A stretch of 64,000 nt of DNA from Escherichia coli (GCA_009729775.1 GCA_009729775.1_4081.1); one strand, 5' to 3'; shown: positions 6,081 to 26,971, counted from the first letter of the stretch. A program made the numbers and translations. Notes: generated by a model not told the origin, from the letters alone.

Positions 6081-6081
6081 G

Positions 6082-11545: not shown

Positions 11546-11550
11546 TTGTT

Positions 11551-12153
11551 TTATACCTCAGTATATAGCTTACAATAGCTTTCATCGAAATTACAAACAC
11601 TTCTCAAGTACTGACACAGGTCATTGAAAATATTTACATTTGATATATATACATTATCAAATTCTGTTCGTTGAAAGAATGTATGCATAGAATTTGTAAT
11701 ATATCGCATTGCATCTTCACGTCCCATAGTTATATCATTTGTGAACATTGCATCTTCATCAGTACTGATGTGTTCTATTTTAAATGATTTCATAAATGGA
11801 ATACTCTTTCCTAGGGCATAACCATCACCATATGATGCTTCTACTGCACCTTTAGAATAAAGGAATTGATATAAGTCCGAATCACGATTATAAAAAGTAC
11901 GACATACGGAGGAACATAATTTATTATCTATATGAAATAAAAATCTTTTAGCATTTTTGTCTAATACTATTCGCAATGCATCACTCTCTAGAAATATATC
12001 ACCATCAAGCATAAATGAGAACTGTACTAATGCTTTTTCTAAATCCGCTCGTTTGTGATAAATCATTTCCTGCATATATATAATATCATTTGCTAATTTC
12101 TTAAAAAACAAATGCACATCTGCACTACAACATTTATTTGCATTTATTGACAT
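11551..12153 (-). CDS. hypothetical protein
   Basis: 200 aa ORF. Confidence 0.55.
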   Translation of the reverse strand: MSINANKCCSADVHLFFKKLANDIIYMQEMIYHKRADLEKALVQFSFMLDGDIFLESDALRIVLDKNAKRFLFHIDNKLCSSVCRTFYNRDSDLYQFLYSKGAVEASYGDGYALGKSIPFMKSFKIEHISTDEDAMFTNDITMGREDAMRYITNSMHTFFQRTEFDNVYISNVNIFNDLCQYLRSVCNFDESYCKLYTEV

Positions 12154-12704
12154 AATAGTTCCTTATACATATGATGTACTTTACAAATCTCATTATAGTA
12201 TTTCATATCAATGTCATTTGTATTAAAAACGGAAACAGACAATACTGCTAACTTATCAATTAAGTAATTATTATCGGCGTACTCTTTTAACTTATTGAAC
12301 ATATAGATGCATTTTATGCTTAATTCATCATGCAACACACTGTTCTGAAAAATATTCTCTTCAGTATTAGGAGATAAGTAATCTTCAATTATATACGATA
12401 AACTACTATCGCAATCTTTATAGATTGAAATTGATGGATGTAATGTGTCATACATTACACTAAACAGAACACCGTCATATGTGGATATTAAACTATTATT
12501 GGAAACAGTAGGATGATAATATTTCAGTACTGAAAACTTTGAACAATCAGTGCAGTAAAAATGATCCATCCCTCGACGACTTTCGTATGAGAATAGTTTA
12601 CTTGTATATTCAATCCCTTTGGTGCGACGGATTGTTTCATGCATTTCTGCACATTGCATTAAAATTACCATACGTTCAAACGCAATATCTAAATCATCGT
12701 ACAT
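12144..12704 (-). CDS. family A paralog
   Basis: core EENIFQNSVL. Confidence 0.7.
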   Translation of the reverse strand: MYDDLDIAFERMVILMQCAEMHETIRRTKGIEYTSKLFSYESRRGMDHFYCTDCSKFSVLKYYHPTVSNNSLISTYDGVLFSVMYDTLHPSISIYKDCDSSLSYIIEDYLSPNTEENIFQNSVLHDELSIKCIYMFNKLKEYADNNYLIDKLAVLSVSVFNTNDIDMKYYNEICKVHHMYKELLCQ

Positions 12705-12885
12705 AACGGATATCCTTCTTCAGCGAATTAATATATTCCAAAATAACTTGTTCCTGATATTGGGTTCCCAAGTACATCAGGACTTTCAACTCTTTGAATT
12801 CAGTACTATATGAGTCTGTTTGCATCATTCTAGTAGAATATATATTGAATAGTTTAGCAATGTCATTTTGGTCTATTATTTTCAT
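12694..12885 (-). CDS. family B paralog (small protein)
   Basis: 63 aa; motif YLGTQYQEQV; isolated inside family A array. Confidence 0.65.
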   Translation of the reverse strand: MKIIDQNDIAKLFNIYSTRMMQTDSYSTEFKELKVLMYLGTQYQEQVILEYINSLKKDIRYVR

Positions 12886-13084
12886 ATATTCTCTTCTGGA
12901 TTAGTTCCTGTAAGTGCTGAATATAACCCTTCATTGCAACATCCTGTTTGTTAGAGCCAACGAAGAACAAGAGCTTAAAGTCATGGTAATCCATTTTTGG
13001 TTTAGTAGTGAACCATATGTCCCACACTGCACTCACAGTTCTCATGTATTCAATTCGATTAAATGTTTTTGAATACTTCATCAA
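12863..13084 (-). CDS. family B-like small protein (divergent)
   Basis: 73 aa; FVGSNKQDVAMKGYIQHL. Confidence 0.5.
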   Translation of the reverse strand: MMKYSKTFNRIEYMRTVSAVWDIWFTTKPKMDYHDFKLLFFVGSNKQDVAMKGYIQHLQELIQKRIYENNRPK

Positions 13085-13595
13085 TGTTAATCGCCAATAA
13101 GTTAATATACAAATTACTGTTAAATGCTATCTGCAATTCCATATAGAACTGAATGATAGCATAGTCAGGGTCAGTACACGATAGTTGAAAACACTGTTCG
13201 TCAAATGCATTGTAATTGTACTTAGGGATGTGAATTTCACGCTTCAAATCAGGTTGACCCCACTTCATCGCATACACACCAATGTTATTGTTCTTTTTCC
13301 TTTTCTTAAATGTTAATTGTTGAATATTTCCAGCGTTGTCTAGGAAAATAGTATTATTCGACACAGGTGCACCAATAGAAAACAATGATGTATCAATTAC
13401 GTGTGTCTCACGCACCTCACACTTCTGGAATGCCCCAGTACCCTGTAATACATAATGAAAATTGTACTTCTCATTAACAACAGTACTAGGATCGATTAAA
13501 CCAGTACTGCATTTTTTGAGTACTGGTACAATGGTGCGAATCTTTTTTGATAAATCTTGTAATGCATCAAAGTCATTGATGTTAACTTTCATCAC
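13059..13595 (-). CDS. family A paralog
   Basis: core DEQCFQLSCT. Confidence 0.65.
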   Translation of the reverse strand: MMKVNINDFDALQDLSKKIRTIVPVLKKCSTGLIDPSTVVNEKYNFHYVLQGTGAFQKCEVRETHVIDTSLFSIGAPVSNNTIFLDNAGNIQQLTFKKRKKNNNIGVYAMKWGQPDLKREIHIPKYNYNAFDEQCFQLSCTDPDYAIIQFYMELQIAFNSNLYINLLAINIDEVFKNI

Positions 13596-14041
13596 TCGAA
13601 TGTAGCCTCTTCAGTAGTAACAAAATTGGTTAGTGTATCCAGTTCAGCAGTGTCAAGATAAAATACATCTAGTACAGATTTCTGATATATTACACTGAAT
13701 GTGCATAGATTGTCAAGTGTCCCTTGTTCATAAACAGTACTACCCTGGAAGTACCCTTCTTCAGTACTCAGGGATAAAATATCTGAAATTTTAAAAGATT
13801 CTTCAGTTGCATGTCTTTCTATATTAACTATATTGCCGTTTCGGTTCAATGAAATATAATCGTATGCTAACTCAATTAGACTATAATTATCCGCATTAGT
13901 GTCAAATAAAGCGACAATTTTTCGTCTCAATCTCTCATCGTGATCATGGTTTTCATCAGCTAAGTATTCAGGATTTTCTTTGAAGAATTTAACGACGCGT
14001 AGAATATCATTTGCTTTCTTGATTGCACTTTCGTAACTCAT
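13592..14041 (-). CDS. family A paralog
   Basis: core EEGYFQGSTV. Confidence 0.7.
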   Translation of the reverse strand: MSYESAIKKANDILRVVKFFKENPEYLADENHDHDERLRRKIVALFDTNADNYSLIELAYDYISLNRNGNIVNIERHATEESFKISDILSLSTEEGYFQGSTVYEQGTLDNLCTFSVIYQKSVLDVFYLDTAELDTLTNFVTTEEATFE

Positions 14042-14346
14042 AATAATTCAACCACTCCATCTCTAAAGTACATATAACTACCACCATTGGATACTGTGAA
14101 TTCTATTGTCCCCAATAATATATTATATTTTTTTATTTCACATGTAGTACTTGTAGTGTAAGGCTCACCATCTCCTAAGTACATTGACATATGACATAGA
14201 ACTTTTCTACCAGCATATTTCTCTTCAAACGATTGTTCAAAACTATGCATAATTTGATTTAAAGCTGAAATGTAATTAATAAAGTCAGGTATTTCTGTTA
14301 ATGAATTATAAACCGTACAAAGTGAATCAAATTCATTTTTAGTCAT
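14038..14346 (-). CDS. hypothetical protein
   Basis: 102 aa ORF. Confidence 0.55.
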   Translation of the reverse strand: MTKNEFDSLCTVYNSLTEIPDFINYISALNQIMHSFEQSFEEKYAGRKVLCHMSMYLGDGEPYTTSTTCEIKKYNILLGTIEFTVSNGGSYMYFRDGVVELL

Positions 14347-14660
14347 TATATTTCTATCTCAATGTAATCCTGTGTGATTAAGTAATTCCAATGATACTTC
14401 ACCTGCTTTTGTAATTCAATTAACGTAAAGAAGTTGATCGATTTATCCCACACGAGCGATTCCTGGAAAATAAATGATTCATGTTCATCGTAATAATCAC
14501 ACTCTAAAAAATCAGGTATATATTCACTATCGTGAATGTATTCAACAAATGAACTAGCTTGGCATTTCTTTACTACTAGTAATAATGAATTATCATGATC
14601 AAACAGATACAATAAACTAATTTCACCAGGGACGTACTGAACACTGAATAAGTTTTTCAT
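14346..14660 (-). CDS. family A paralog
   Basis: core ESFIFQESLV. Confidence 0.7.
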   Translation of the reverse strand: MKNLFSVQYVPGEISLLYLFDHDNSLLLVVKKCQASSFVEYIHDSEYIPDFLECDYYDEHESFIFQESLVWDKSINFFTLIELQKQVKYHWNYLITQDYIEIEI

Positions 14661-15109
14661 TCTATACCTTCTGGATCTTTACGAAGTTCTTCGAAATCCA
14701 AATAAAATCGAGGACAGTTAACACTCTTTAAGTACCACATAATAACTAATGCTTCAAGTACTTCATCATCGTAAACAGTACTGTTTTGGAAGTAATACTC
14801 TTCACTATCCCACGGACCTTCCAGTACTTCATAATTCAAAATTAATGGTTTTTTGCGATTAATAAAACGAATGCTACCATTTTCAACATAACTAATAAAT
14901 TCTGCATCTCTATTGTATTCAGAAAACGATATAGGACTATTGGAATTCAACCCAAGAATAACCCTTACACCAACGGAGTTATTATACATTTCATCCTTGT
15001 AGTAGTTGCCGTTCTCGGCTTTGTACACTTCTTTGAACTTTCCTGCCTTTATATCGTCAAAGTATCCATGTAGTTCTTTTGCTTTTTCAAGAGCACTTTG
15101 TAATGACAT
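14657..15109 (-). CDS. family A paralog, MSLQSAL subfamily
   Basis: N-term MSLQSALEKAK; core EEYYFQNSTV; VIMWYLK. Confidence 0.75.
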   Translation of the reverse strand: MSLQSALEKAKELHGYFDDIKAGKFKEVYKAENGNYYKDEMYNNSVGVRVILGLNSNSPISFSEYNRDAEFISYVENGSIRFINRKKPLILNYEVLEGPWDSEEYYFQNSTVYDDEVLEALVIMWYLKSVNCPRFYLDFEELRKDPEGIE

Positions 15110-15575
15110 TACCTTCTCCTACAGTATTCTCTACATATTCATAATCAAAATAGAAACTACTGGAGTCAATACTTTTGAAATACCACATAATTACAATAAC
15201 ATCTAATTCTTCTTCATTGTACAACGTACTATTCTGGAAGTAATATTCTTCACTATCCCACGGTCCTTCCAGTACTGAATAAGGAATGATAGTGTCATCA
15301 GCATCACTATCTGTGTTGTAGATGGTAATATCTTCATTACGACAATAACTAATGTACTGATTGTACATATGATATTCACAGTTATCACTGTCACCAGTAT
15401 CAGTGTGCAGTACTAATGTTTCTGCACATATCTCGGACTCGTCATAATCGTCACGGTCTTTTACAAAAAATTCAGTATCAGATGTTTTATATACACCTGG
15501 TACTGAACCTTCCTGTACCATAATCATGTACTCATGAATCTTCTTTGCTTCTTTCAATGCACTTTGTAATGACAT
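15087..15575 (-). CDS. family A paralog, MSLQSAL subfamily
   Basis: N-term MSLQSALKEAK; core EEYYFQNSTL. Confidence 0.75.
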   Translation of the reverse strand: MSLQSALKEAKKIHEYMIMVQEGSVPGVYKTSDTEFFVKDRDDYDESEICAETLVLHTDTGDSDNCEYHMYNQYISYCRNEDITIYNTDSDADDTIIPYSVLEGPWDSEEYYFQNSTLYNEEELDVIVIMWYFKSIDSSSFYFDYEYVENTVGEGNVITKCS

Positions 15576-16018
15576 TACAAATCCCCTGTACTTAAATATT
15601 CACATGCTCCCCAGTCAAGAAAGAATGGTTCAAAATTCAATTCCTTAAAGTACCACAACACAACCAAGGAATCAAGAATTTCTTGGTTAAAAATGAGACT
15701 CTGTTGGAAGTAATACTCTTCAGTACCCCACGGGCCATCAAGTACCCCGAAGTCAACAGGTGTATTTGTTGTGTCAAAAGTAATCTTAGTACCTGGAATA
15801 TATACAAAAAAATTAGTATATTGACTACATGAAGAGTACTGTATAGTATTGTCTTTATCCTGTCCCATAAGTAAAATATCATCAGAGTATGTCTTTATAC
15901 CTGATAGATAATACTCATCACCAAATGCACTTACTTTATCACCATAGAAACCACTTTTTATGTTATCGTGGAAGTGATGTATTCTGTGTGCTAGTTCAAG
16001 TGCACTTGCTAAACTCAT
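15575..16018 (-). CDS. family A paralog, MSLQSAL subfamily
   Basis: N-term MSLASALELAH; core EEYYFQQSLI. Confidence 0.75.
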   Translation of the reverse strand: MSLASALELAHRIHHFHDNIKSGFYGDKVSAFGDEYYLSGIKTYSDDILLMGQDKDNTIQYSSCSQYTNFFVYIPGTKITFDTTNTPVDFGVLDGPWGTEEYYFQQSLIFNQEILDSLVVLWYFKELNFEPFFLDWGACEYLSTGDL

Positions 16019-16485
16019 ATATCCTCTTTAATAACTCGTAGTAGATCCAAGTCCAAATAGAAGCTAGGACAATCTGTATTATTAAAGTACCACAGAATGA
16101 CAAGCTTGTCAAGTACATCTTCCTCGTAGATAGTATTCTGCTGGAAGTAGTACTCTTCACTTCCCCAGTCATTATCCAGTACTGAATACGGAAGATGTTT
16201 CTCTGCTGCACCAGATATAATGTCAGAATCTTGTATTAAAATATCAGCATCACGACAGAAGTACATGTAATTATCTTCCAAATTAACATCACACCCATTG
16301 AGTGTTGTTTCAGAAGAATCTAAGTTTTCTTCATACATGTGAATGTACTCACTACTGTCATCGTATCTCATTCGACAATATGATTTACCTTCCTTGAATA
16401 GATATCCATTAAGACAATTTGCTACAATTTCTTTGCTGCATAAATCAATTAACTTCGCAATCTCTAATGCTCTTTCTAAACTCAT
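16015..16485 (-). CDS. family A paralog, MSLQSAL subfamily
   Basis: N-term MSLERALEIAK; core EEYYFQQNTI. Confidence 0.75.
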   Translation of the reverse strand: MSLERALEIAKLIDLCSKEIVANCLNGYLFKEGKSYCRMRYDDSSEYIHMYEENLDSSETTLNGCDVNLEDNYMYFCRDADILIQDSDIISGAAEKHLPYSVLDNDWGSEEYYFQQNTIYEEDVLDKLVILWYFNNTDCPSFYLDLDLLRVIKEDI

Positions 16486-16486
16486 T

Positions 16487-16978
16487 TCAACCCCTGTTAA
16501 TACCGTTATCTACAGTTTTCTTTACGTATTTGTAATCGAAATAGAAGTTCCCAGAACCAATACTTTTAAAGTACCACATAATTATAATAACATCAAGTAC
16601 TTCATTATCATATACAGTACTTTGTTGGAAGTAATACTCTTCACTATCCCACGGACCTTCCAGTACTTCACTCGGAATTATAATGTCATTGGAATCGCTG
16701 TCAGTACTGTTGATGGTATCTGTATCATTAATATAGACCATGTACTCATTATGCATATTAATGAAGCATTCATAATCATTAGGGTCGGTATCTAGTATGC
16801 ACGTTTCTGTATCCAGTACGCACGTTTCTGTATCTGAGCAGTCATTATAAAGGAGGTTATCCGGTACATAATATTGAGTACTTGTGTCTTTGAAAACACC
16901 GTAAACTGAACCTTCTTTTGCCATATTCATGTACTCATGAATCTTCTTTGCTTTTTCCAATGAACTCTGTAATGTCAT
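16487..16978 (-). CDS. family A paralog, MSLQSAL subfamily
   Basis: N-term MTLQSSLEKAK; core EEYYFQQSTV. Confidence 0.75.
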   Translation of the reverse strand: MTLQSSLEKAKKIHEYMNMAKEGSVYGVFKDTSTQYYVPDNLLYNDCSDTETCVLDTETCILDTDPNDYECFINMHNEYMVYINDTDTINSTDSDSNDIIIPSEVLEGPWDSEEYYFQQSTVYDNEVLDVIIIMWYFKSIGSGNFYFDYKYVKKTVDNGINRG

Positions 16979-16987
16979 TTTATAATC

Positions 16988-17347
16988 TCATATATTGAAA
17001 TAATAATTATTCGTTCTTGATGGGGATGGATTAAATACGTTTTCTTTTTCAAATCTCTTCATTTCATTTTGCAAAGAAACCATTTCTTCAAATGTACAGG
17101 AGTACTTATTCTTATCAAACACTAATGCAGCCTGAAATAGTTCACCATCGTCCAGTACTGTATAATCTATAAGACTCTCAGATTCATAGTCATAGTCGTC
17201 ATGTGATACATGAATAAATTTAAAACAAGAATCTTTGTAATGCATATATAAACTCAACTCATGTTCCGAGTCGCCCTTAATAAGATTACAGCACAAGTCC
17301 CATCCTTTAGGTAACTTATAATAGTACATAGAATAATCATATGTCAT
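16988..17347 (-). CDS. family A paralog
   Basis: core DGELFQAALVFDKNKY. Confidence 0.7.
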   Translation of the reverse strand: MTYDYSMYYYKLPKGWDLCCNLIKGDSEHELSLYMHYKDSCFKFIHVSHDDYDYESESLIDYTVLDDGELFQAALVFDKNKYSCTFEEMVSLQNEMKRFEKENVFNPSPSRTNNYYFNI

Positions 17348-17700
17348 TCTTGAATTCCTAAATTGAATTTGTATTCTTGATTAATACTTGCATTGGGTTT
17401 ATGCAAAGCAGCATACTCTTTCATTTCATTTTGTATTGCAATAACTTCTTCAAATGTACACAAGTACTTCTTATCAAATACTAATGATTCTTGGAATAGT
17501 TCTGCGGTATCCATTAATGTATAGTCCGGCATATCTTGGTGTGGATACTGTAATGAACTGTAATCAATGAATGTAAATTTACCCTGAGTGTAATGAATAT
17601 ACTCATTTGCACTGTGCATTAAATCACCTTTGTTTAAATTACAAAAGTACTGATAACTGTGCTTGAAAGTATGTACTGATATTAAAAAATCAAATTCCAT
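17344..17700 (-). CDS. family A paralog
   Basis: core TAELFQESLVFDKKY. Confidence 0.7.
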   Translation of the reverse strand: MEFDFLISVHTFKHSYQYFCNLNKGDLMHSANEYIHYTQGKFTFIDYSSLQYPHQDMPDYTLMDTAELFQESLVFDKKYLCTFEEVIAIQNEMKEYAALHKPNASINQEYKFNLGIQE

Positions 17701-18071
17701 CAGTACTCAACCTCTACATAAATAGATTCAGGAAACTTAGTCATATAATCTTCTGGATAGTTCTGCATTACTTTGATCATTTCTGCCTGTGTAGCACGGA
17801 CGTATTCAATTGGTGCTCCTGGTAAATTCCAGACAGTACTTTCCTGAAAGAATTCCTCTTCTGACAGTACTGTCAGATTTACAAAATCATTACGGTAATT
17901 TTTTGAATCATCATATGTGAAGATTTTAAAAGACCCATTTTCATATAGTACAAGAACAAAATGGGAGAATTTTTGTAATGCACCACCAAGGCTTTCCACG
18001 ACCGCATGATTCAGTGTACAGATGACCTCTTTTTTCCTCATACCGAATTGAATTCTAATTTCTTTTTTCAT
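17700..18071 (-). CDS. family A paralog
   Basis: core EEEFFQESTV. Confidence 0.7.
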   Translation of the reverse strand: MKKEIRIQFGMRKKEVICTLNHAVVESLGGALQKFSHFVLVLYENGSFKIFTYDDSKNYRNDFVNLTVLSEEEFFQESTVWNLPGAPIEYVRATQAEMIKVMQNYPEDYMTKFPESIYVEVEY

Positions 18072-18129
18072 AAAATCTCCTTCAGATTAGTACTGAATTT
18101 GTACAGAATATTAGAACTGTATACAGCCT

Positions 18130-18228
18130 CTGTATCTGTATCCATAATCAAATCACCTTTGTTTAAATTACAAAAGTACTGATAACTGTGCTTAAAAGAA
18201 TGTACTGATATTAAAAAATCAAATTCCA
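18130..18228 (-). pseudogene. truncated duplicate of the 5' end of gene 17344..17700
   Basis: about 85 bp near-identical to 17620-17700 (N-terminal codons MEFDFLISVH...) followed by unrelated sequence and early stop. Confidence 0.5.
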
Positions 18229-18606
18229 TCACTCTTCCCCTAGATTGAAATGATTACAAAAATCATCTTCACCAGTACTGCACCAGATGTCTATACATTC
18301 TCTGTGAATACATTTAATTCTACGCTGTAATTCAATCATCTCTTCTAATGTACAGATGTACTTCTTATCAAATACTAATGCCGCCTGAAACAGTGCAGCA
18401 TCATCAAGTACTGTATAGTCCAACATCTCGGTTGCTTTACCCCTAAACCCAGTACTAAAATCCATCAAATAAAAGTCAGCATTCCAGTACTTTAAAATCT
18501 TGTCCCTAGCGTAGTTTAAATCACCCTTGTATAAGTTAGAGTGCGTAACTAACTCACCAGTGTACATCCATGTCCTTGCACAAAATTCATTATATTTTAT
18601 TTCCAT
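18229..18606 (-). CDS. family A paralog
   Basis: core DAALFQAALVFDKKY; start moved to internal Met (MEIKYNEF); track N-terminal extension runs through an intergenic region. Confidence 0.6.
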   Translation of the reverse strand: MEIKYNEFCARTWMYTGELVTHSNLYKGDLNYARDKILKYWNADFYLMDFSTGFRGKATEMLDYTVLDDAALFQAALVFDKKYICTLEEMIELQRRIKCIHRECIDIWCSTGEDDFCNHFNLGEE

Positions 18607-18801
18607 CTTAATCTCTACTATAATTAATAAGGTAAACTCCAATATAAGGAGAACGTTCGGCGGCGGGGTATTTTTTGTTTCAAGAAACATGAACTGTACT
18701 CTGAAAAACACAATATAAAACTTTATATTAAACATATACCTTAGCATGTTTTTCAGCGGAAATTTTTTTGACCCCCTGCGGCCTGTCAAAATGAAACGTC
18801 T

Positions 18802-19026
18802 CTATTTATTCAGCATAGAAAGCTTGATTTCTTCAATCCTTTTCATTGCACAAAGCCTTCGACTCGTCCTCTCGTATATATTCAATACTCGCTGTAATGC
18901 ATTATCTGTATTATCTGGAACTGCAATCTGAACCAAATATGTATCCTTCAAAATAGAATCCATCATGAATTCAAAACCTTTCACACTAAAGCAATATGCC
19001 ACTTCCGGCTCTTCAAACGTAATCAT
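18802..19026 (-). CDS. hypothetical protein
   Basis: 74 aa ORF. Confidence 0.45.
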   Translation of the reverse strand: MITFEEPEVAYCFSVKGFEFMMDSILKDTYLVQIAVPDNTDNALQRVLNIYERTSRRLCAMKRIEEIKLSMLNK

Positions 19027-19243
19027 AATTCCAATCCCCTATTCCCTCTAACCTTCTAAGATATCTTGCGTAAATTATTTCGAAATATCTGTGCAACGAA
19101 ATTACGGATTGCTCATAATCATCATTCCTGTACATTGTGCATGTCAGAAAATCATTTAACCCAAAATCTAAACTGCACTTGAACTTCTCCTTTGCAATAT
19201 CACTATTACTTGCACTTTTCATAATAAACCCTTTGTACCGCAT
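19013..19243 (-). CDS. hypothetical protein
   Basis: 76 aa ORF. Confidence 0.45.
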   Translation of the reverse strand: MRYKGFIMKSASNSDIAKEKFKCSLDFGLNDFLTCTMYRNDDYEQSVISLHRYFEIIYARYLRRLEGIGDWNYDYV

Positions 19244-19397
19244 TGGTGTACTGTGAACTCAGCACCACTAATAGGTAATCTATATTGTAAGCACGATTTC
19301 CTCGTTGACTAGCACGGCTGGAATAAAGAATATTATCCACATATGTATTGAACTGATCTTCAAATAACTCTTTCATCAGCATTATCCCATCACATAA

Positions 19398-19940
19398 TCA
19401 TACATTAACAACTTTATCGATGTAATCTTCTAACATATCAATATATCTGGTATTGGTTCTAACTAAAAGGTATGCAAATCCAGAAAACTCCTGTGTATAA
19501 TGCTTTACAGCGTACATACAACGAAGCTTATCATTGTCATACATTGTACTGTACTGAAACAAACTCTCGTCTGATAGCTCTAATAACGCTTGGGCTTCAC
19601 TTCTCGTGAACTTCATAGGGTCATGTACTGCATCACAAAAACAAACCTGTGTCTCGCTATTGAAACCCTGTGATAGATATATACCTTCACACTCTGAACG
19701 CACCGATACTGCATTATAACTATGTGTTGCCCCCATCATATCTGAACTCAAAACTAAAATCAACCCATTTTTATTTTTAATCAACAAATCTGACTTAAGG
19801 GATTTGATCTCCGTATGGGAAATATCACCAAATCTTCCTGGAACTTCAAACTTATCAACGTTGTATACAATCTTTTGTACTTGCTCTTTTAAACGCTTAA
19901 TTGCACTTCTGTCTTTTTCTAATGTATCTAATAAACTCAT
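19398..19940 (-). CDS. family A paralog
   Basis: core DESLFQYSTM; start set at MSLLDTLEK by analogy with MSLQSAL subfamily. Confidence 0.6.
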   Translation of the reverse strand: MSLLDTLEKDRSAIKRLKEQVQKIVYNVDKFEVPGRFGDISHTEIKSLKSDLLIKNKNGLILVLSSDMMGATHSYNAVSVRSECEGIYLSQGFNSETQVCFCDAVHDPMKFTRSEAQALLELSDESLFQYSTMYDNDKLRCMYAVKHYTQEFSGFAYLLVRTNTRYIDMLEDYIDKVVNV

Positions 19941-19950
19941 TGTACTTTCC

Positions 19951-20295
19951 TTACATATTTGTACCGAACAAAACGGAACTTTGAATGCCATTAATCGACA
20001 CTTCATGTACATATATATTTTGTCTGAATACCTGAAGCAATTGAACTAAACTTTGTTGCATAATAATATGCATATGTACATTATCAAAGGCCGTTTCGTA
20101 TTGGAATCGTGCAGCTTCATCTTCTATGAAATTCGGAACTTGGACTGGATTTTCAAAATTTGTCCTTGTACTGAACTGTACATCATTGTCCTGTACCTTA
20201 ATACCATATGAATTATCATTGTTATCAACTACATCAAATTCAATTAAACTACCATCTTTACTGACGTTTACTATATAAACCGAAAATCGACTCAT
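19951..20295 (-). CDS. family A paralog (divergent)
   Basis: core EAARFQYETA. Confidence 0.55.
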   Translation of the reverse strand: MSRFSVYIVNVSKDGSLIEFDVVDNNDNSYGIKVQDNDVQFSTRTNFENPVQVPNFIEDEAARFQYETAFDNVHMHIIMQQSLVQLLQVFRQNIYVHEVSINGIQSSVLFGTNM

Positions 20296-20807
20296 AAACC
20301 TATTTCCTCTAAATCTTTGACAAATGTATCATAATCCGATAATGACAAAAATATGTCTGTACTGATGTTTTGACGTAATGTATTAAACAAATTATGTACC
20401 TGTAATAAATCAGGTGCATAAATCAGGGATTGCTGGAAATACGATTCTTCTGTATCTAATATATCCCTGCACTCTATTTCACGAACTCGTTGGTATATTG
20501 AATTTAATAATACATTTTCATCTTTGAGCATTGGAAGGTATCGGATGTACATGTGCTCCATCATCTCATCCTGGATTGAACCCCTGAACTGCAACACGTA
20601 TTCAAAACACATCACTACATCTTGTAGGTAATTGGCACTGTAATTATTGCTGTAAACAATCTTATGACTTCTGAACTCATCATCATTTCTGAACCAATTG
20701 TCACCTACTTTGGTGTACTTATGACTAAGCTTCCCATCCTCCAACGCTCGAATGAACTTCATAATGTTAATTGCAAAATCATATGAATGATGCTTGTGTT
20801 GATGCAT
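20292..20807 (-). CDS. family A paralog
   Basis: core EESYFQQSLI. Confidence 0.7.
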   Translation of the reverse strand: MHQHKHHSYDFAINIMKFIRALEDGKLSHKYTKVGDNWFRNDDEFRSHKIVYSNNYSANYLQDVVMCFEYVLQFRGSIQDEMMEHMYIRYLPMLKDENVLLNSIYQRVREIECRDILDTEESYFQQSLIYAPDLLQVHNLFNTLRQNISTDIFLSLSDYDTFVKDLEEIGL

Positions 20808-20815
20808 TTTTTACC

Positions 20816-21010
20816 TCAATTCTGTCCGAAAAAATAACCAAAATGTTTAAAGCAAGAAAGCATTACTATGTTCATCACTCTATCATCAAATTCATCTTGT
20901 GTTTCTGCACATAATGTTTCACAGATATTCAAATGTAATAATTCAAGCTGGAAACTGTCGGTGAACCAATCAAACTTACGGTATTTTTGTTTAACATCAA
21001 CTGTAAGCAT
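20816..21010 (-). CDS. hypothetical small protein
   Basis: 64 aa ORF. Confidence 0.4.
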   Translation of the reverse strand: MLTVDVKQKYRKFDWFTDSFQLELLHLNICETLCAETQDEFDDRVMNIVMLSCFKHFGYFFGQN

Positions 21011-21011
21011 A

Positions 21012-21635
21012 CTATATATCCAACCCTTTTACAACATCTACGAAATGTTCAAACACTTCTTTTGAAAAATAACCACCTTCACAAAAAAGCATACTAAACG
21101 GTGGCAGCATGTCCGATAACTCTTTAGCTAAATTGATTTCTGCTCTTAACTCTTGAACATCAATGATATCATGTACTAAAGATAATTGAAACATGAATGC
21201 ATCTACATCTTCATTCATTTCTGAATTGTAATATAACTCTTCAGGGAATTTGTCGGTTTCGTAATAATAAAAAACTTTATTGTTGAACACACCACTAATA
21301 GGAACATCATTTTCATCTTTCTTTGAAATGTTTGTTTCCCATGACTCTATATTATTAGGAACAAAAAAATCATAGGCTGACTTTGAACCCTGTACTGAAT
21401 CCAACTTTATTCCATAATATTCCGTATCCATGTATTTCTGCTGTAATGTAATACCACGTGTACTGACATTCACTTGGAATATATCATCTTTATCTGGAAC
21501 ACTAAATGGAATACATAACACTGAATTCTCAGGGTATTTGGCAATGAATGCATCCAGCACTTTATTAAGCACCGGAATGGCAATTTTACTGTACTGCATC
21601 AAATCATACATTTTAATTCTGGTCATATCATTCAC
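21012..21635 (-). CDS. family A paralog
   Basis: core DAFMFQLSLV. Confidence 0.7.
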   Translation of the reverse strand: MNDMTRIKMYDLMQYSKIAIPVLNKVLDAFIAKYPENSVLCIPFSVPDKDDIFQVNVSTRGITLQQKYMDTEYYGIKLDSVQGSKSAYDFFVPNNIESWETNISKKDENDVPISGVFNNKVFYYYETDKFPEELYYNSEMNEDVDAFMFQLSLVHDIIDVQELRAEINLAKELSDMLPPFSMLFCEGGYFSKEVFEHFVDVVKGLDI

Positions 21636-22167
21636 CTGTGTATGTTTTCACCCTTAGCGATTCAAAATCCCATACATCACTGATTGTACCATTGTGCCTG
21701 TAATCATAATATTCTACTAATACATTATACAATAACTTCAACGATACAAATTCATGATTCCACGGAGCTTTATTCTCATGAACACATTTGGTGATATAAG
21801 GTATAATATATAAACTAAACAACACTAATGGTGAATGTATACATTGCATTTGAAAATATTCTTCTTCTTGCATACAATGTTCAGGAATAATTAGATCATA
21901 ATGTGTCTCAAATAAATGTAAACCTATTGTGGTTTTTTTCGTATCACATGCGTACCATATTGTACTATCCGAAATAAATGGAATGATACCATTATTGTTT
22001 GCAATGTACATCATATGGTAAGAGCGATTTGTCTTGTTAAATATCTCGATACTTTCGATATTACTACAAATCATGTATTCAAGGCAATCAATGATCTTAT
22101 CTTTAAATGTACCAATTTCATTGAATGACATTGCTTTCTGTACTTTTGATACTGTTGTACTGCTCAT
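21628..22167 (-). CDS. family A paralog
   Basis: core EEEYFQMQCI. Confidence 0.65.
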   Translation of the reverse strand: MSSTTVSKVQKAMSFNEIGTFKDKIIDCLEYMICSNIESIEIFNKTNRSYHMMYIANNNGIIPFISDSTIWYACDTKKTTIGLHLFETHYDLIIPEHCMQEEEYFQMQCIHSPLVLFSLYIIPYITKCVHENKAPWNHEFVSLKLLYNVLVEYYDYRHNGTISDVWDFESLRVKTYTGE

Positions 22168-22838
22168 ATGTTATCCTTAAAAAAATCCAAATACTCTTCA
22201 TTGAAAGCATATGTATCATCTTTTTTGTTATGCACCACATAATCATAAAGAGCTATGAATGCAGGGATTATGATCTTACATGATTTATTATTGTATTTGT
22301 GGTACTCCAAATCAACGGTGTTCAATTTAGCAATAAGCATAGCAACAAAGATATCTTCATGGCGATGTACTGTACTGTACTGAAAATACTCATCCTCTCC
22401 AATATCTGGATGATATAACGGTATAACCAAATTATTACGAATTGACATCTTATATTTTTGTAATGCAGCTAAATGTATGAACCACAATCTATCTTCATTG
22501 AAATATGGAAAAATAATTTTGTCTGTGCTAATAAAAATTTCTTCATTTCGATTATTTGTCACAAGAGGTGCATACATTTTAATTTTTGCAGATCTAATAA
22601 TTAAATTAAAAATATAATGAATCTTATGAACTGCACTTGATGCATCTTCGTATGTACTTGGGATTATGAAACTCACTATATGTTCTCCTTTAAAATGATT
22701 ACACATGATAACAGCTTTGCACTTCTTTGTCAATACCAAAACGAAAAAAGCCCATATCTTACGATACAGGCGTGCTGGGAATGTTGATTTGGATTTCATT
22801 GTACAAATCATCAATATATAGACATGAAAAAAACACAC
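22164..22838 (-). CDS. family A paralog
   Basis: core EDEYFQYSTV; start probably at an internal Met (track start overlaps upstream gene by about 80 nt). Confidence 0.6.
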   Translation of the reverse strand: MCFFHVYILMICTMKSKSTFPARLYRKIWAFFVLVLTKKCKAVIMCNHFKGEHIVSFIIPSTYEDASSAVHKIHYIFNLIIRSAKIKMYAPLVTNNRNEEIFISTDKIIFPYFNEDRLWFIHLAALQKYKMSIRNNLVIPLYHPDIGEDEYFQYSTVHRHEDIFVAMLIAKLNTVDLEYHKYNNKSCKIIIPAFIALYDYVVHNKKDDTYAFNEEYLDFFKDNI

Positions 22839-23265
22839 TATCTTTTAATATATTGTTGTGATAAAGCATTTTAAATACTACATAAAAAAATAAATCAATA
22901 TCATCGTGGACTAAATTCTGCTGGAACCACCACTCGTCTGTTAAATCTTGTGCATTAAAATCATCAGGAACTTCAATGAACGACATATCACAATCTTCTT
23001 TGTACTCAAACCACATGTCGTCATTCGGATAACGTTCATGCTTCTCTGGGTAACAATTGCTGGGATTAAATGTTAAAATATTAAACCCCGTAGAGCAACG
23101 TTCTTTATTTAAAAATGTATTATTCCATACCTGATATTTTTCACCAACATCAAGCTCTTCTGTTACTGATTTTATTGCACATAATGTACTGTATATTGTT
23201 TCTATCTTGTGAACATATTTAAATGCAGCATCTAAGCTGAACTCTAAATCATACATGTACTGCAT
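22759..23265 (-). CDS. family A paralog
   Basis: core DEWWFQQNLV. Confidence 0.65.
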   Translation of the reverse strand: MQYMYDLEFSLDAAFKYVHKIETIYSTLCAIKSVTEELDVGEKYQVWNNTFLNKERCSTGFNILTFNPSNCYPEKHERYPNDDMWFEYKEDCDMSFIEVPDDFNAQDLTDEWWFQQNLVHDDIDLFFYVVFKMLYHNNILKDSVFFSCLYIDDLYNEIQINIPSTPVS

Positions 23266-23585
23266 AAAATTACCTCAACTAAAGCAAGGACTGTATTGAA
23301 TTCCACTATACTTGTAATTCCTTGAAGGTACATGTACTTTGCTACTACATATTTCTGTACTAAATTATAATTTTTAAATTCCTCAAAATTGTAATTCAAA
23401 ATGAAATTTGTACTCAAAAATAACTTATGCATCTCTAATGCACTCTGATAATATTGGTACAACTCTCTGATATCAATACTTTGTAAATCACTTTGTTCAT
23501 ATGTATGATAAGGAATGGCTTCAATTTCAATACGATGAAACCATTCTCTTAACTTATTAATATCAAATGTATTATTCAGCTTCAT
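23244..23585 (-). CDS. hypothetical protein
   Basis: 113 aa ORF. Confidence 0.5.
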   Translation of the reverse strand: MKLNNTFDINKLREWFHRIEIEAIPYHTYEQSDLQSIDIRELYQYYQSALEMHKLFLSTNFILNYNFEEFKNYNLVQKYVVAKYMYLQGITSIVEFNTVLALVEVILCSTCMI

Positions 23586-24138
23586 AACTCAATATCTCCA
23601 TTAAACACTCATAAACACCATCAATCGCATAAGCACAAAAATTGAAATTAATTTTATGATTCTTGTGTAATGGACTATTGTGTACTGTACTAATAAGGAC
23701 ATTATAAAACAACAAACGCACTGGCACAAGCAATGAACCTTGGAAAAATTCTTCCTCTGATTTATATGTATTGTACTCTATTGTTTTGTTCGTTTCTGTA
23801 TCATATTTTACCATTACTAATGGGGAATTTTTATTATACCATGCGTACTCTAAATCATTCTTTCCAATAACAGCACCAGGTGCGAAATCCAAAAGACCAA
23901 TAACACTATGGGCATTTGGTGTATCAGGTGTATTGAATCGTTTATCAAAATGACTCGTGCACGCAATATATGTATTGTACTTCGATGGAATGATACCAAT
24001 ACATTTGTGGATGTGACGCTTGTAATCTTTCTGGGCATTATATAAGGCTGCAACAATACAAGCTAACTTTTGTCCCATAAGGATTGCATTAGCGTAGGTG
24101 TACTGAATTTCATTGCTGGTACGGTACTTCGAGGTCAT
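23572..24138 (-). CDS. family A paralog
   Basis: core EEEFFQGSLL. Confidence 0.7.
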   Translation of the reverse strand: MTSKYRTSNEIQYTYANAILMGQKLACIVAALYNAQKDYKRHIHKCIGIIPSKYNTYIACTSHFDKRFNTPDTPNAHSVIGLLDFAPGAVIGKNDLEYAWYNKNSPLVMVKYDTETNKTIEYNTYKSEEEFFQGSLLVPVRLLFYNVLISTVHNSPLHKNHKINFNFCAYAIDGVYECLMEILSYEAE

Positions 24139-24421
24139 AATATTTCCTTTGCCATATCATGGGCTTAAAATCAATAACAGCTTTCTGTATCTTTTTTAAT
24201 AATAAGACATCATAACCACCCGTATCAATCACTAATTGCTGTTGGAACAATTCTTCATCGGATAATGTATTGAAATCTACAAAATAATCTGTGACTATCG
24301 AATCATTTAAATGTGCCATGTACCAACCTGAACTTCTTGAATAAATCAAATTCCACCCATCGTCATTGTCTTCTAATTCAACATAAATCATATCTGGGGT
24401 ATACATCATTTTATACTTCAT
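24110..24421 (-). CDS. family A paralog
   Basis: core DEELFQQQLV. Confidence 0.65.
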   Translation of the reverse strand: MKYKMMYTPDMIYVELEDNDDGWNLIYSRSSGWYMAHLNDSIVTDYFVDFNTLSDEELFQQQLVIDTGGYDVLLLKKIQKAVIDFKPMIWQRKYYDLEVPYQQ

Positions 24422-24965
24422 AACTATATCCTTGCATTAATAAATCATAAACTACATGGACTAAATTTAATTGAATATAAAATTTTAAACCTTTAATTAA
24501 TGGATTCAAATGCATTGTACTGAATAACATTAGATACATCATCTCATGCGGTTTTGTGATTAATGATTTTTGAAATACTTCAGCTTCATCATAAGGGTCT
24601 ATGAACTGAAATTTGTCTTCATCATAATTTGTATTGGAATGCTGATATATAAAATAATCATCATTGGTATTGTACCACAAATACCCTTCGAATCCTGTAC
24701 TAACACCTTTGGTCAATGGGGATGCTGATACTGGATTTGAACTGATTAATGCACCTACATCAACAATCCCCGTTGTATCATATTCGATTTCAACATCAAT
24801 GTCAATATCAATGTATTTCCTTGCGATATCTGCGTTTATGGACAAATACAAACTACCACCTGTCCTCTGACTCAGGATTCCATCTATCTGCGATATAGGA
24901 TGGTTGTTATTGAGGATAAGCATTATTGTACTTATCTTGTGTGCTAATAACTCTATCTCATTCAT
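24411..24965 (-). CDS. family A paralog
   Basis: core EAEVFQKSLI. Confidence 0.65.
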   Translation of the reverse strand: MNEIELLAHKISTIMLILNNNHPISQIDGILSQRTGGSLYLSINADIARKYIDIDIDVEIEYDTTGIVDVGALISSNPVSASPLTKGVSTGFEGYLWYNTNDDYFIYQHSNTNYDEDKFQFIDPYDEAEVFQKSLITKPHEMMYLMLFSTMHLNPLIKGLKFYIQLNLVHVVYDLLMQGYSYEV

Positions 24966-25298
24966 AATTTACCTTATGGATTCGGGTGCAATAAATGATC
25001 TTGATAACTTAAATGCTCTTGTGATATTGCACTTAAATAATAACTAAAATTTTCAATACCACCCTTTAAATGTATATTGTAATACAACTTAATACTTACT
25101 AATAAAGAATCATTTAAATCATTTATTGCTTTTGTATTAACCACTTTCATTAATGTTCTTCTCTTAAAAATCGTTTGATAGCATAATCTAAATAAAATTC
25201 ATAACACATGCTATCTCTGTTCTTTATCCATATTTTGTAATCGGATTTTATATTACTTAACAAATAATTTGTATTAATTGTGTAATAATCTAATCGCC

Positions 25299-25688
25299 CT
25301 AATCGTGCCATTTAATAGGATACTCCTTTCCTTGTACTACATAAGATATAATCCATCCGTAATGAATAGGACTATTCTTTTCTCCTTTAGGAATAAAATA
25401 TAAAGATGTACTAGGATTATAACTGAATAAATCATTATTGTCAAATGTAAAATGAGATAACGTTATCTTCCTTGTACTTGGACTAATAACATTCTTAACA
25501 CCAAACACGGTATCTTGATATTTCTCTGAAAATTCAAACAATGCATCTGTAATTAAATCATTGAATTCTATACATAATGGTTTAAAAGAACCATCATTAT
25601 CTTTGAATTCCTTATATAAAGAGCTTCTTGTATTCAAAAGAAATATTACTTTTTTAAGATCCTGAACTATTTCTGGATTCATATTCAT
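25299..25688 (-). CDS. hypothetical protein
   Basis: 129 aa ORF. Confidence 0.5.
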   Translation of the reverse strand: MNMNPEIVQDLKKVIFLLNTRSSLYKEFKDNDGSFKPLCIEFNDLITDALFEFSEKYQDTVFGVKNVISPSTRKITLSHFTFDNNDLFSYNPSTSLYFIPKGEKNSPIHYGWIISYVVQGKEYPIKWHD

Positions 25689-25920
25689 TTATCTCATTCT
25701 GTATCTTAAGCATCAAAATTTGCATATTAATTTTTTGTACAAGGTGCTTGATAAATTTCTGTGCCATTTCTTCTTGTTCTTTTGTACCAAGATAAAATAA
25801 CAGATTAAATTCTGATAATCGCAAAGAAAAATCTTCATCACCACCCTTTAAACAAAAATCCCTGTACTTTGTAGCGTACAAATATTGGTTTACCTTTTTA
25901 TAATACCCTGTGTTTTGCAT
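25654..25920 (-). CDS. family B paralog
   Basis: motif FYLGTKEQEEMA. Confidence 0.6.
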   Translation of the reverse strand: MQNTGYYKKVNQYLYATKYRDFCLKGGDEDFSLRLSEFNLLFYLGTKEQEEMAQKFIKHLVQKINMQILMLKIQNEINEYESRNSSGS

Positions 25921-26108
25921 ACTATCTCCGTTCGCAACGAATTTATATAATAATGAACAAATTGTTCTTGTGAACGTGTTCCAAGAAAAATAAACATATC
26001 AAACTCTGTTGTTTTTAAATTCAATGCATCTTTTGTAAAATTCCTGTTGAATTCCCTGTACTTTTGGGTCTTCCATTCTTGATTAATTGTCTTGTATATC
26101 GATTTCAA
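25890..26108 (-). CDS. family B paralog
   Basis: motif IFLGTRSQEQFV. Confidence 0.6.
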   Translation of the reverse strand: MKSIYKTINQEWKTQKYREFNRNFTKDALNLKTTEFDMFIFLGTRSQEQFVHYYINSLRTEIVCKTQGIIKR

Positions 26109-26409
26109 TGATTCTCCCTGACATACCTTGTATTAGCTTATCATACATATCGAGCATCACTTTTTGAATATTAATTAGTACTGGCATCGTGCAAATATCA
26201 ATGTCGTATACTAAGCTGTACTGGAATAATTCATCTTCCTGCATTTGTACTAAATTAGGTAAAGGATAATTGTCTGCCTCTTCATCCTGATACTTGAAAT
26301 GCATAACACCATCCTTTTTGTACAAAAGAATGTCAATATCACCTAACTCTTCTGCATAACCAAAAATACATATACTCGATGTTTTTGCTATATTAAATTT
26401 CATATACAT
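26083..26409 (-). CDS. family A paralog
   Basis: core EDELFQYSLV. Confidence 0.7.
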   Translation of the reverse strand: MYMKFNIAKTSSICIFGYAEELGDIDILLYKKDGVMHFKYQDEEADNYPLPNLVQMQEDELFQYSLVYDIDICTMPVLINIQKVMLDMYDKLIQGMSGRIIEIDIQDN

Positions 26410-26411
26410 CC

Positions 26412-26753
26412 TTATACATAAATTTGATAGACATTTTGAACAAAATACTTTGGAAGACTACTATATGATATCATCTGCCTTTGTACTTCCTTCATCTCTT
26501 CCAATGTCAATCCCAAAGAATCATCGTGTACTATCATGTACTGAAACTCGTCTTCTTCAGAGATATCAAATAAATTCGGTACTGCAATTATATCAATACC
26601 TACCATCCAAAAAAAAGAATTATTACTTTTTCTGTACTCAAAAAAATTCAAAGAAGAACCACTCTGTAAATCAGATACCATAATGGAACATTCATCGTTA
26701 CGTACAATACAATTGAATTTACGCATTATCTCCACCTCTCTCCGTCTGTACAA
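26412..26753 (-). CDS. family A paralog
   Basis: core EEDEFQYMIV. Confidence 0.65.
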   Translation of the reverse strand: MYRRREVEIMRKFNCIVRNDECSIMVSDLQSGSSLNFFEYRKSNNSFFWMVGIDIIAVPNLFDISEEDEFQYMIVHDDSLGLTLEEMKEVQRQMISYSSLPKYFVQNVYQIYV

Positions 26754-26971
26754 GAGTACTGGTACGTTGTCGTTAGGGTAGGGACCATGTTTGTAATGGG
26801 CATGTTGTTAACAATAACCGTAACAGGCATAAGAATCGTCTCTTCTCTACTCTGTCCTGTCCTTGTGCAATTCATCTTTTGCATTTCATCTGAATCCATG
26901 AAATACAATACAAATGGTGCAATCCCAAGAACAATACACAAGACGATAAGGAAATTTAAAAAATTTAACAT
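26726..26971 (-). CDS. hypothetical small protein, possible membrane protein
   Basis: 81 aa; hydrophobic N-terminus MLNFLNFLIVLCIVLGIAPFVLYF. Confidence 0.4.
   Translation of the reverse strand: MLNFLNFLIVLCIVLGIAPFVLYFMDSDEMQKMNCTRTGQSREETILMPVTVIVNNMPITNMVPTLTTTYQYSCTDGERWR

What the first reader, a model, noticed from the sequence alone, without database searches (positions are those of the whole stretch)
12694..26108. Family B genes interleaved inside the family A array
Two pairs of family B genes lie embedded among family A genes, far from the main B array. This implies recombination between the two arrays or a shared regulatory context, and suggests the locus is a hotspot for gene gain and shuffling.
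Basis: seen in the sequence. Interest (0 to 1): 0.45.

Follow-up and report, generated by a model that had tools for sequence, protein, structure and literature searches.

The report
Old mixed gene-family array in jumbo phage
Four small genes of one uncharacterised phage gene family really do sit inside a long array of a second family, but this mixed layout is old and conserved among related jumbo phages, so it is not a recent shuffle; what either family does is unknown.

Summary
The window comes from an Asteriusvirus (121Q/PBECO4-like) E. coli jumbo phage. ORFs 12694-12885, 12863-13084, 25654-25920 and 25890-26108 (all minus strand) match a family B model built only from the main array (E 7e-13 to 3e-6; next best 0.69). 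They also match phrog_4148, and they lie among 41 family A genes.

The four genes are 33-36% identical to their nearest paralog and have no flanking repeats. They occupy the same slots in about 30-35 related phage records. In Klebsiella phage RaK2, a different genus, B genes also occur in clusters of 1-3 among A genes, next to a homologous neighbour gene. Mixing is therefore ancestral, and the 24-gene B block beside the terminal repeat looks like the lineage-specific expansion.

A shared regulatory context is supported: the genes share one strand, their ORFs overlap, and promoters are few. Rapid turnover of the arrays as a whole is also supported.

Neither family has a Pfam hit or a significant match to any solved structure, and neither was detected in phAPEC6 virions. 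My best guess, which is inferred and not shown, is that they are early, non-structural host-interaction proteins. The finding is real but modest.

The parts
12694..12885 (-). Family B gene, pair 1, downstream member (63 aa)
   Evidence: B HMM E 7.3e-13. phrog_4148 E 1.2e-16. Predicted three-helix bundle, pLDDT 85.5. dN/dS 0.11-0.15 against ph0011 and fEgEco12. Orthologue at 81% identity or more in 33 of 35 records.
12863..13084 (-). Family B gene, pair 1, upstream member (73 aa)
   Evidence: B HMM E 5.2e-7. phrog_4148 E 8.2e-4. 95% identity or more in 32 of 34 records.
25654..25920 (-). Family B gene, pair 2, downstream member (88 aa)
   Evidence: B HMM E 3.2e-6. phrog_4148 E 2.4e-3. Reciprocal best cross-genus match to RaK2 B gene L005:10040-10264. 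Found in 31 records at 60-100% identity.
25890..26108 (-). Family B gene, pair 2, upstream member (72 aa); hypervariable slot
   Evidence: B HMM E 1e-11. phrog_4148 E 7.2e-9. The best paralog is its neighbour, at 33% identity. 19 of 30 records carry a version below 60% identity; the listed matches lie in or beside the same slot.
27717..33020 (-). Main family B array: 24 tandem, overlapping genes of 66-96 aa
   Evidence: All 23 junctions overlap. The array begins about 70-100 nt inside the inner boundary of the terminal repeat.
68..27727 (-). Family A array: 41 model-supported genes of about 100-220 aa, interspersed with the four B genes and about 20 other ORFs
   Evidence: jackhmmer from four seeds. 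Invariant F-Q. Median pI 4.8. Alpha/beta model with pLDDT 83.6 and pTM 0.79.
13059..13595 (-). 178-aa gene immediately upstream of pair 1; synteny anchor to RaK2
   Evidence: 31% identity over 172 aa to RaK2 L005:12971-13504 (E 5e-16). That RaK2 gene is immediately followed by three B genes.
33021..33048 (-). Promoter-like site (TTGACT-16-TAAAAT) just upstream of the first B gene
   Evidence: Consensus match only; function not shown.
27001..27029 (-). Promoter-like site in one of the rare intergenic gaps, upstream of the block that contains pair 2
   Evidence: 10 of 12 matches, with TG.
25416..25444 (-). Perfect TTGACA-17-TATAAT inside ORF 25299-25688, just downstream of pair 2
   Evidence: It is the only 12-of-12 site in 12-31 kb.
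9926..9955 (-). Perfect sigma-70-like promoter in an intergenic gap of the A array
18068..18232 (-). Truncated 5' copy of A gene 17344-17700
   Evidence: 85-nt direct repeat, 17618-17702 and 18147-18231, 96% identical.
33090..52911 (-). Equivalent of the roughly 20-kb direct terminal repeat: loosely spaced small genes, most with their own promoter
   Evidence: Homology to the fEgEco12 termini (DTR of 20,993 bp confirmed in PMC13070987). 13 perfect promoters on the gene strand. Median intergenic gap +68 nt.

Best explanation
The window covers the early-type left arm of an Asteriusvirus jumbo phage. By homology to fEgEco12, the roughly 20-kb direct terminal repeat corresponds to window ~33.1-52.9 kb. 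From there all genes run in one direction: first a block of 24 family B genes, then a long array of family A genes.

The four interleaved B genes are not recent arrivals from the main B block. They are old residents of an ancestrally mixed array. In the common ancestor of Asteriusvirus and Alcyoneusvirus (RaK2), small clusters of B genes already lay among A genes, each cluster grown by local tandem duplication. Asteriusvirus later expanded one B cluster next to the terminal-repeat boundary into the large block. Relatives further out have A only: fENko-Kae01 has a pure A array that starts right after its repeat, and GAP32 has two or three A-like genes.

A and B genes are packed with overlapping stop and start codons, and promoter-like sites occur only every few kb. 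They are therefore most likely co-transcribed in long units.

Inferred function: both families encode non-structural proteins made early or in mid-infection that act on host components (takeover or counter-defence). Their evolution is dominated by duplication, divergence around a small conserved core, allele replacement and recombination between co-circulating phages.
For: Shown:
- Family membership.
- Deep divergence of all B paralogs. The interleaved ones are 33-36% identical to their nearest paralog, and only two young duplicate pairs exist in the main block, at 70% and 56%.
- Positional orthologues across the genus.
- RaK2 map BAA....,,B,,..,A...AAAAA.BB......,A.BBB.....BBB.AABAAAA..., with the same motifs and no large B block after its repeat-like region.
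- Synteny anchor 13059-13595 = RaK2 12971-13504, followed there by BBB.
- Reciprocal best matches W12694 <-> RaK2 13510 and W25654 <-> RaK2 10040. Main-block B genes score higher against each other (38-111 bits for all but four of the 24) than against any RaK2 B (18-34 bits).
- fENko-Kae01 has A only, starting at its DTR boundary. GAP32 has 2-3 A-like genes and no B.
- Purifying selection on 12694-12885.
- Gene packing and promoter distribution.
- Position relative to the DTR (PMC13070987).
- No gp348-gp548 in the phAPEC6 virion proteome. That range holds the A gene gp442c and the B gene gp481c (PMC7247149 Table 1).
- Hypervariability: JNE01 cannot be aligned over the arrays but is 94% identical in the adjacent repeat region.
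- The equivalent region of the related phage CBB was proposed by its authors to hold early host-takeover genes (PMC5259590).
Against: - Cross-genus B orthology rests on low scores (33-36 bits) and one flanking gene. Gene order within the cluster is not perfectly colinear.
- 70-aa proteins at about 30% identity give no resolved tree, so independent insertion in the two genera is not strictly excluded.
- No expression data exist for these genes, and the promoter sites are consensus matches only.
Confidence: 0.6

Rival explanations
1. One reading: B genes were moved or copied from the main B array into the A array by recombination between the arrays, fairly recently.
For: - The arrays do recombine. 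The identity profile between close relatives is mosaic.
- There is a sharp change in divergence inside pair 1.
- There is an 85-nt partial duplication at 96% identity.
- The A/B junction differs between genomes: 'BBAA,AAB', 'BBA,AB', 'BBAA,BAB', 'BAA,ABAAB'.
Against: - The nearest main-array paralog is only 34-36% identical to the pair 1 genes. The pair 2 genes are each other's best match at 33%.
- There are no flanking repeats.
- The slots are conserved in about 30-35 records.
- RaK2 shows the same interleaving and a homologous flanking gene.
Confidence: 0.08
2. B genes were inserted independently among A genes in Asteriusvirus and in RaK2-like phages, and the similar layout is convergent, for example because any small gene is tolerated between array genes.
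For: - Cross-genus B scores are low.
- RaK2 has clusters of 1-3 genes, not pairs.
- Other small non-A, non-B ORFs are also interspersed.
Against: - The homologous 178-aa and 177-aa gene directly precedes the B cluster in both genera.
- Two reciprocal best matches fall in syntenic clusters.
- The A genes are broadly colinear between the genera.
Confidence: 0.12
3. A functional rival: family B proteins are small helix-turn-helix-like DNA-binding regulators, and family A proteins are acidic partner or decoy proteins. The interleaving would then reflect functional A-B pairing.
For: - B is a three-helix bundle with a conserved Gly-Thr turn before a long third helix.
- B has a median pI of 8.6, against 4.8 for A.
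- The top, non-significant Foldseek hits for B are homeodomains.
Against: - Those fold matches have E above 1 and TM 0.26-0.34.
- There is no HTH Pfam hit.
- Six of the 28 B proteins are acidic.
- The numbers (41 A, 28 B) and the block layout do not suggest one-to-one pairs.
- fENko-Kae01 has A without B.
Confidence: 0.12
4. The four small ORFs are chance ORFs with a chance motif, not real B genes.
For: Two of the four have only modest scores: 20-23 bits against the window HMM, and PHROG E of about 1e-3.
Against: - Two independent models hit all four, with a clear gap to background.
- The ORFs are conserved across about 30-35 genomes.
- dN/dS is 0.11-0.15 for 12694-12885.
- They fit the tight head-to-tail tiling of the strand.
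Confidence: 0.02

Closest known systems
PHROG family phrog_4148 (unknown function)
   Same: All four interleaved ORFs and the main-array genes match this model over nearly its full length or over its C-terminal half. It is the same protein family.
   Different: The PHROG entry carries no function and no information on genomic arrangement. The A/B interleaving and its conservation in RaK2 are not recorded there.
Unnamed paralog sets of Rak2-like jumbo phages (RaK2: 'nearly 10% of gene products are paralogues', PMC3622015; CBB: 22 paralogous ORFs, PMC5259590)
   Same: Same phage group and the same phenomenon: lineage-restricted paralogs with no database homologues. RaK2 ORFs 384-431 include the A and B members mapped here.
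   Different: Those papers do not define the families, their motifs, their position next to the terminal repeat, or their intermixing.
Host-takeover gene clusters in or next to long terminal repeats of large lytic phages (T5 pre-early region, SPO1 terminal redundancy); recalled from general knowledge
   Same: Position at the genome end. One transcription direction. Many small genes of unknown function. Strong host-type promoters in the repeat.
   Different: There is no sequence or fold relationship. The timing of expression is unknown here. The scale of paralog expansion (at least 69 genes) is not typical of T5 or SPO1.
Terminal multigene families of large eukaryotic DNA viruses (ASFV MGF110/360/505, poxvirus ankyrin/host-range families); recalled from general knowledge
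   Same: Tandem arrays of divergent paralogs near the genome termini. Copy-number variation between strains. Members of different families lie side by side.
   Different: A different virus realm and different hosts, with no homology. A role in host range or immune evasion is established there and only conjectured here.
Lineage-specific expansion of about 35 zinc-ribbon genes in Bacillus phage G (PMC7824862)
   Same: A large expansion of a small protein family in a jumbo phage.
   Different: Unrelated domain. That family has a recognisable fold; A and B matched no Pfam family or solved structure here.

Membership tests
Family B (= phrog_4148) | Significant match to a profile built from the main array only | tested here: met
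   E 7.3e-13, 1e-11, 5.2e-7 and 3.2e-6, against 0.69 for the best outsider.
Family B (= phrog_4148) | Match to the independent PHROG model | tested here: met
   All four ORFs hit phrog_4148, E 1.2e-16 to 2.4e-3.
Family B (= phrog_4148) | Motif [LIV]-G-[TS]-x-x-Q followed by Y/F-I-x-x-L, in a protein of about 63-96 aa | tested here: met
   Alignment A1: T41, Q44 and L55 are at least 90% conserved. One interleaved ORF (12863-13084) has S in place of T.
Family B (= phrog_4148) | Three-helix fold | tested here: met
   Model of 12694-12885: helices 6-20, 27-37 and 44-62, pLDDT 85.5. The other three ORFs were not modelled.
Family A | Invariant F-Q within an acidic (S/T)EE-x-[YF]FQ-x-S motif, plus a profile match | tested here: met
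   41 ORFs. The flanking ORF 13059-13595 shares only the motif, so its membership is inconclusive.
   No bracketing repeats. The nearest paralog is 33-36% identical.
Helix-turn-helix DNA-binding proteins (considered for B) | Match to a known HTH profile or fold | tested here: not met
   No Pfam HTH hit. The best Foldseek PDB hit has E 1.9 and TM about 0.3.
Early host-takeover region next to a long terminal repeat | Location adjacent to the DTR, one transcription direction, host-type promoters upstream | tested here: met
   The DTR boundary maps to about window 33,090 (PMC13070987). There are 13 perfect promoters on the gene strand in 33-52.9 kb.
Early host-takeover region next to a long terminal repeat | Early transcription and an effect on the host | not testable with these tools
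   The literature searches run here turned up no transcriptome or genetic data for these genes.
Virion (structural or injected) proteins | Detection in purified particles | tested here: not met
   The phAPEC6 virion MS table lists nothing between gp347 and gp549. The A gene gp442c and the B gene gp481c lie in that range.

The most novel reading that the evidence does not exclude
Families A and B, at least 69 genes and about 33 kb or roughly 9% of the genome, placed immediately after the terminal repeat, form a fast-evolving, co-expressed arsenal of host-range or counter-defence proteins. This would be a bacteriophage counterpart of the terminal multigene families of ASFV and poxviruses. The conserved interleaved B genes would be the old core members, and the big B block a recent adaptive expansion. 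Both folds may also be new, since no solved structure matches either.
Probability: 0.25. Interest if true: 0.6.

Novelty: new member of a known kind. Interest (0 to 1): 0.3.

Why it matters
The finding as stated is a modest point of genome architecture. Its value lies in what the follow-up shows.

Rak2-like jumbo phages devote a large, well-delimited block next to their terminal repeat to two uncharacterised protein families. The families have tiny conserved cores (FQ; GT-x-x-Q). The block grows by local duplication, and its sequence changes much faster than that of the neighbouring DNA.

A defined set of about 70 candidates in phages that are being considered for therapy gives a concrete target for deletion and expression screens for host takeover or anti-defence functions. 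The conserved interleaved B genes, especially 12863-13084 (95% identity or more in 32 of 34 records), are the obvious first ones to test.

Tried and rejected
- Pfam on ten A and B representatives and on ten neighbours: nothing above threshold. The only weak hit was kinase-like, for 36511-37152.
- Foldseek against the PDB for the B model: no hit with E below 1.
- The AFDB50 library was not available.
- BFVD returned only paralogs from Rak2-like phages.
- The word-indexed homologue searches returned only Asteriusvirus or E. coli-labelled proteins and missed the RaK2 members. Their apparent 'genus-restricted' result for B was wrong and was corrected by scanning RaK2 directly.
- The exhaustive profile search of the A core found 132 representatives. 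None are fused to other domains, and one is a spurious repetitive protein.
- The search for repeats flanking the B pairs was negative.
- I considered that the EE-x-Y-F-Q-[GS] motif of family A might be a TEV-like protease site. I rejected this as unlikely because the motif lies in a confidently modelled helical core (pLDDT above 90), not in a linker. It was not tested further.
- The PBECO4 annotation is patchy across the B array, so I used my own ORF calls.
- Three literature searches were too broad and gave nothing useful.
- No paper that these searches found describes these families.
Full report
**Source and layout.** The window is 96-98% identical over 12-27 kb to Escherichia phages EC22.5-2, CRJP21, G17, phAPEC6 and 121Q, and matches 36 Asteriusvirus-type records in all. 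From 68 to 56033 essentially all genes are on the minus strand. Phage fEgEco12 has termini and a 20,993-bp direct terminal repeat (DTR) that were confirmed experimentally (PMC13070987). By homology to it, the physical left end corresponds to window ~52,911 and the inner DTR boundary to ~33,090. In the direction of transcription the order is:
- the DTR equivalent (33.1-52.9 kb);
- 24 family B genes (33020 down to 27717);
- the family A array (27727 down to 68).

**Observation.** The best unrelated ORF scores 0.69. The independent model phrog_4148 matches all four as well as main-array members. The alignment shows the shared [LIV]-G-T-x-x-Q ... Y-I-x-x-L signature.

Family A comprises 41 ORFs with an invariant F-Q inside (S/T)EE-x-[YF]FQ-x-S. 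The two families are unrelated. The finding's coordinates match ORF ends exactly.

Three caveats apply. Pair 2 is only five genes (1.6 kb) from the main B array. The A array contains about 20 ORFs that the A and B models do not recognise. The gene next to pair 1 (13059-13595) shares only the FQ motif with A.

**Age of the interleaving.**
- All B paralogs are deeply diverged. The interleaved ones are 33-36% identical to their nearest paralog. Only two young duplicate pairs exist, both inside the main block, at 70% and 56%.
- No repeats bracket either pair.
- Family maps of 121Q, PBECO4, ph0011 and fEgEco12 show the same '...A BB. A...' and '... BB AA, AA BBBB...' patterns. The divergent JNE01 has single B genes in comparable places.
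- tblastn finds 12863-13084 at 95% identity or more in 32 of 34 records, and 12694-12885 at 81% or more in 33 of 35. It finds 25654-25920 in 31 records at 60-100% identity.
- 25890-26108 is found in 30 records. In 19 of these the best match is below 60% identical, and the listed low-identity matches lie in or beside the pair 2 slot.
- 12694-12885 is under purifying selection (dN/dS 0.11-0.15).

**Evidence from other genera.** Klebsiella phage RaK2 (Alcyoneusvirus) carries both families with the same motifs (TEEGYFQYST-YD; LGTNYQE). Its B genes lie in clusters of one to three among A genes and other small families. It has no large B block after its DTR-like region.

The gene just upstream of pair 1 (13059-13595) is homologous to RaK2 L005:12971-13504 (31% identity over 172 aa, E 5e-16). 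That RaK2 gene is directly followed by three B genes.

W12694 and RaK2 13510 are reciprocal best cross-genus matches, as are W25654 and RaK2 10040. Both pairs fall in syntenic clusters. Main-block B genes mostly score higher against each other than against any RaK2 B. The A genes are broadly colinear between the genera.

Further out, fENko-Kae01 has a pure array of long-form A genes that starts at its annotated DTR boundary, and no B. GAP32 has two or three A-like genes and no B.

The simplest reading is that A is the older family. B arose in the RaK2/Asteriusvirus lineage and was mixed with A from early on. The big B block is an Asteriusvirus expansion at the DTR-proximal end.

**Regulatory context.** Junctions overlap in 51 of 65 cases in the A array and in 23 of 23 in the B array. 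The median gap is -4 nt in A and -10 nt in B, against +68 nt in the DTR equivalent.

Sigma-70-like sites are not enriched in the arrays: 100 found against 114±9 expected, and 73 against 78±11. In the DTR equivalent there are 106 against 70±8, including 13 perfect TTGACA-N16/17-TATAAT sites, all on the gene strand.

Within the arrays, good gene-strand sites sit in the few intergenic gaps: 33048, 27029, 9955, 6080 and 2798, some with hairpins. One perfect site lies inside ORF 25299-25688. A and B genes are therefore most likely co-transcribed in long units. This is inferred from sequence only.

**Turnover.** The identity profile against close relatives is mosaic. Against 121Q it runs from 100% down to 73-77% within a few kb. 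JNE01 cannot be aligned over the arrays but is 94% identical in the adjacent DTR region.
- B genes number about 20-33 per genome, and the A/B junction differs between genomes.
- Within pair 1, 12863-13084 differs from ph0011 and fEgEco12 at 2 of 219 nt, while its neighbour has dS of about 0.5. This implies a recombination breakpoint between them.
- An 85-nt repeat at 96% identity marks a truncated A copy at 18068-18232.

The arrays are thus a variable region, although the interleaved pairs keep stable positions.

**What the proteins are.** Neither family has a Pfam hit.

B is predicted to be a 63-aa three-helix bundle (pLDDT 85.5) with no significant PDB match. B proteins are mostly mildly basic (median pI 8.6).

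An exhaustive profile search of 1.84 billion representatives with the A core returns 132 proteins of 65-215 aa plus one spurious repeat. 128 of them BLAST back to Asteriusvirus or RaK2 ORFs, and none is fused to another domain.

The phAPEC6 virion proteome has no entry between gp347 and gp549. That range contains A gene gp442c and B gene gp481c, so the proteins are probably non-structural.

From position, packing, variability and absence from virions, I infer early or middle host-interaction proteins, for takeover or counter-defence. No step of that function has been shown.

**Verdict.** The suggestions of a shared regulatory context and of a variable locus are supported by other evidence. Papers on this phage group mention paralogs only in general terms (PMC3622015, PMC5259590), and PHROGs lists the families as unknown. 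This is a new, better-defined example of a known kind of thing: lineage-specific multigene expansions in the early region of large phages.

Noticed in passing
window 33000-52900 (minus strand): 13 perfect TTGACA-N16/17-TATAAT promoters, all on the gene strand. Sites are enriched (106 found against 70±8 expected), and so are terminators (21 against 12±3). The region corresponds to the roughly 20-kb direct terminal repeat of fEgEco12, and most of its small genes appear to have their own promoter.
   Followed up: partly
window 34549-34576, 36472-36499, 39831-39858, 43885-43912 (minus strand): A repeated composite element, AAAGGGATTGACTCCGGTCAGTCCCTTT GCTATTAT. It is a 12-bp-stem hairpin whose loop side contains a TTGACT -35 box, followed by a TATTAT -10 box. 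It looks like a terminator fused to a promoter. A similar hairpin-plus-promoter lies in the A array at 2770-2808.
   Followed up: no
window 51745-53165, and ~52911: An ORF-free stretch of about 1.4 kb where the GC skew changes sign. Position 1 of fEgEco12, its confirmed physical left end, aligns to window 52911. The window therefore appears to run across the genome terminus of a repeat-collapsed or circularised assembly.
   Followed up: partly
window 56118-63443 (plus strand): Six tandem paralogous genes of 358-449 aa with RCC1-like beta-propeller repeats (Pfam RCC1, RCC1_2, WD40_RLD). This is a third tandem family. Similarly sized (~40-kDa) proteins at the ends of the phAPEC6 gene numbering (gp003-gp010, gp549, gp551) are annotated as DNA condensation proteins and were detected in virions. 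Direct homology to these six genes was not tested.
   Followed up: partly
window 17618-17702 and 18147-18231; ORF 18068-18232: An 85-nt direct repeat at 96% identity. The second copy is the 5' end of a truncated duplicate of A gene 17344-17700. It is a recent partial duplication inside the A array.
   Followed up: yes
window 12694-13084: The two genes of pair 1 have very different divergence from ph0011 and fEgEco12. 12863-13084 differs at 2 of 219 nt, while 12694-12885 has dS of about 0.5. This implies a recombination breakpoint between them.
   Followed up: partly
window 604-1017 (minus strand): A 137-aa gene inside the A array is unusually conserved: 60% identity to RaK2, 48% to GAP32, 40-47% to Serratia, Erwinia, Yersinia and Pectobacterium jumbo phages, and 37% to some 130-kb Vibrio phages. 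One record (ph0011) annotates it as a putative ADP-ribosyl transferase, but it has no Pfam hit here. It is a useful positional marker for the array.
   Followed up: partly
window 53921-54580 (minus strand); RaK2 L006:3264-3806, 21110-21463, 26419-27021: Isolated family A-like genes lie outside the main array, on the other side of the genome terminus in the window and scattered in RaK2.
   Followed up: no
window 36511-37152 (minus strand): A 213-aa ORF in the terminal-repeat equivalent has a sub-threshold protein-kinase match (Pfam E 7e-4). Its counterparts are annotated as kinases in ph0011 and fEgEco12.
   Followed up: no
window 25416-25444 (minus strand): The only perfect sigma-70 consensus in 12-31 kb lies inside ORF 25299-25688, immediately downstream of B pair 2. 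It may be an internal promoter for the following A genes.
   Followed up: no
RaK2 L005:2149-3006, 10895-12434, 14161-15701: Runs of three to five similar-sized ORFs (about 90-112 aa) lie between the A and B clusters of RaK2. This suggests further small tandem families in the same region. Window ORF 14038-14346 matches one of them (30% identity, E 1e-8).
   Followed up: no
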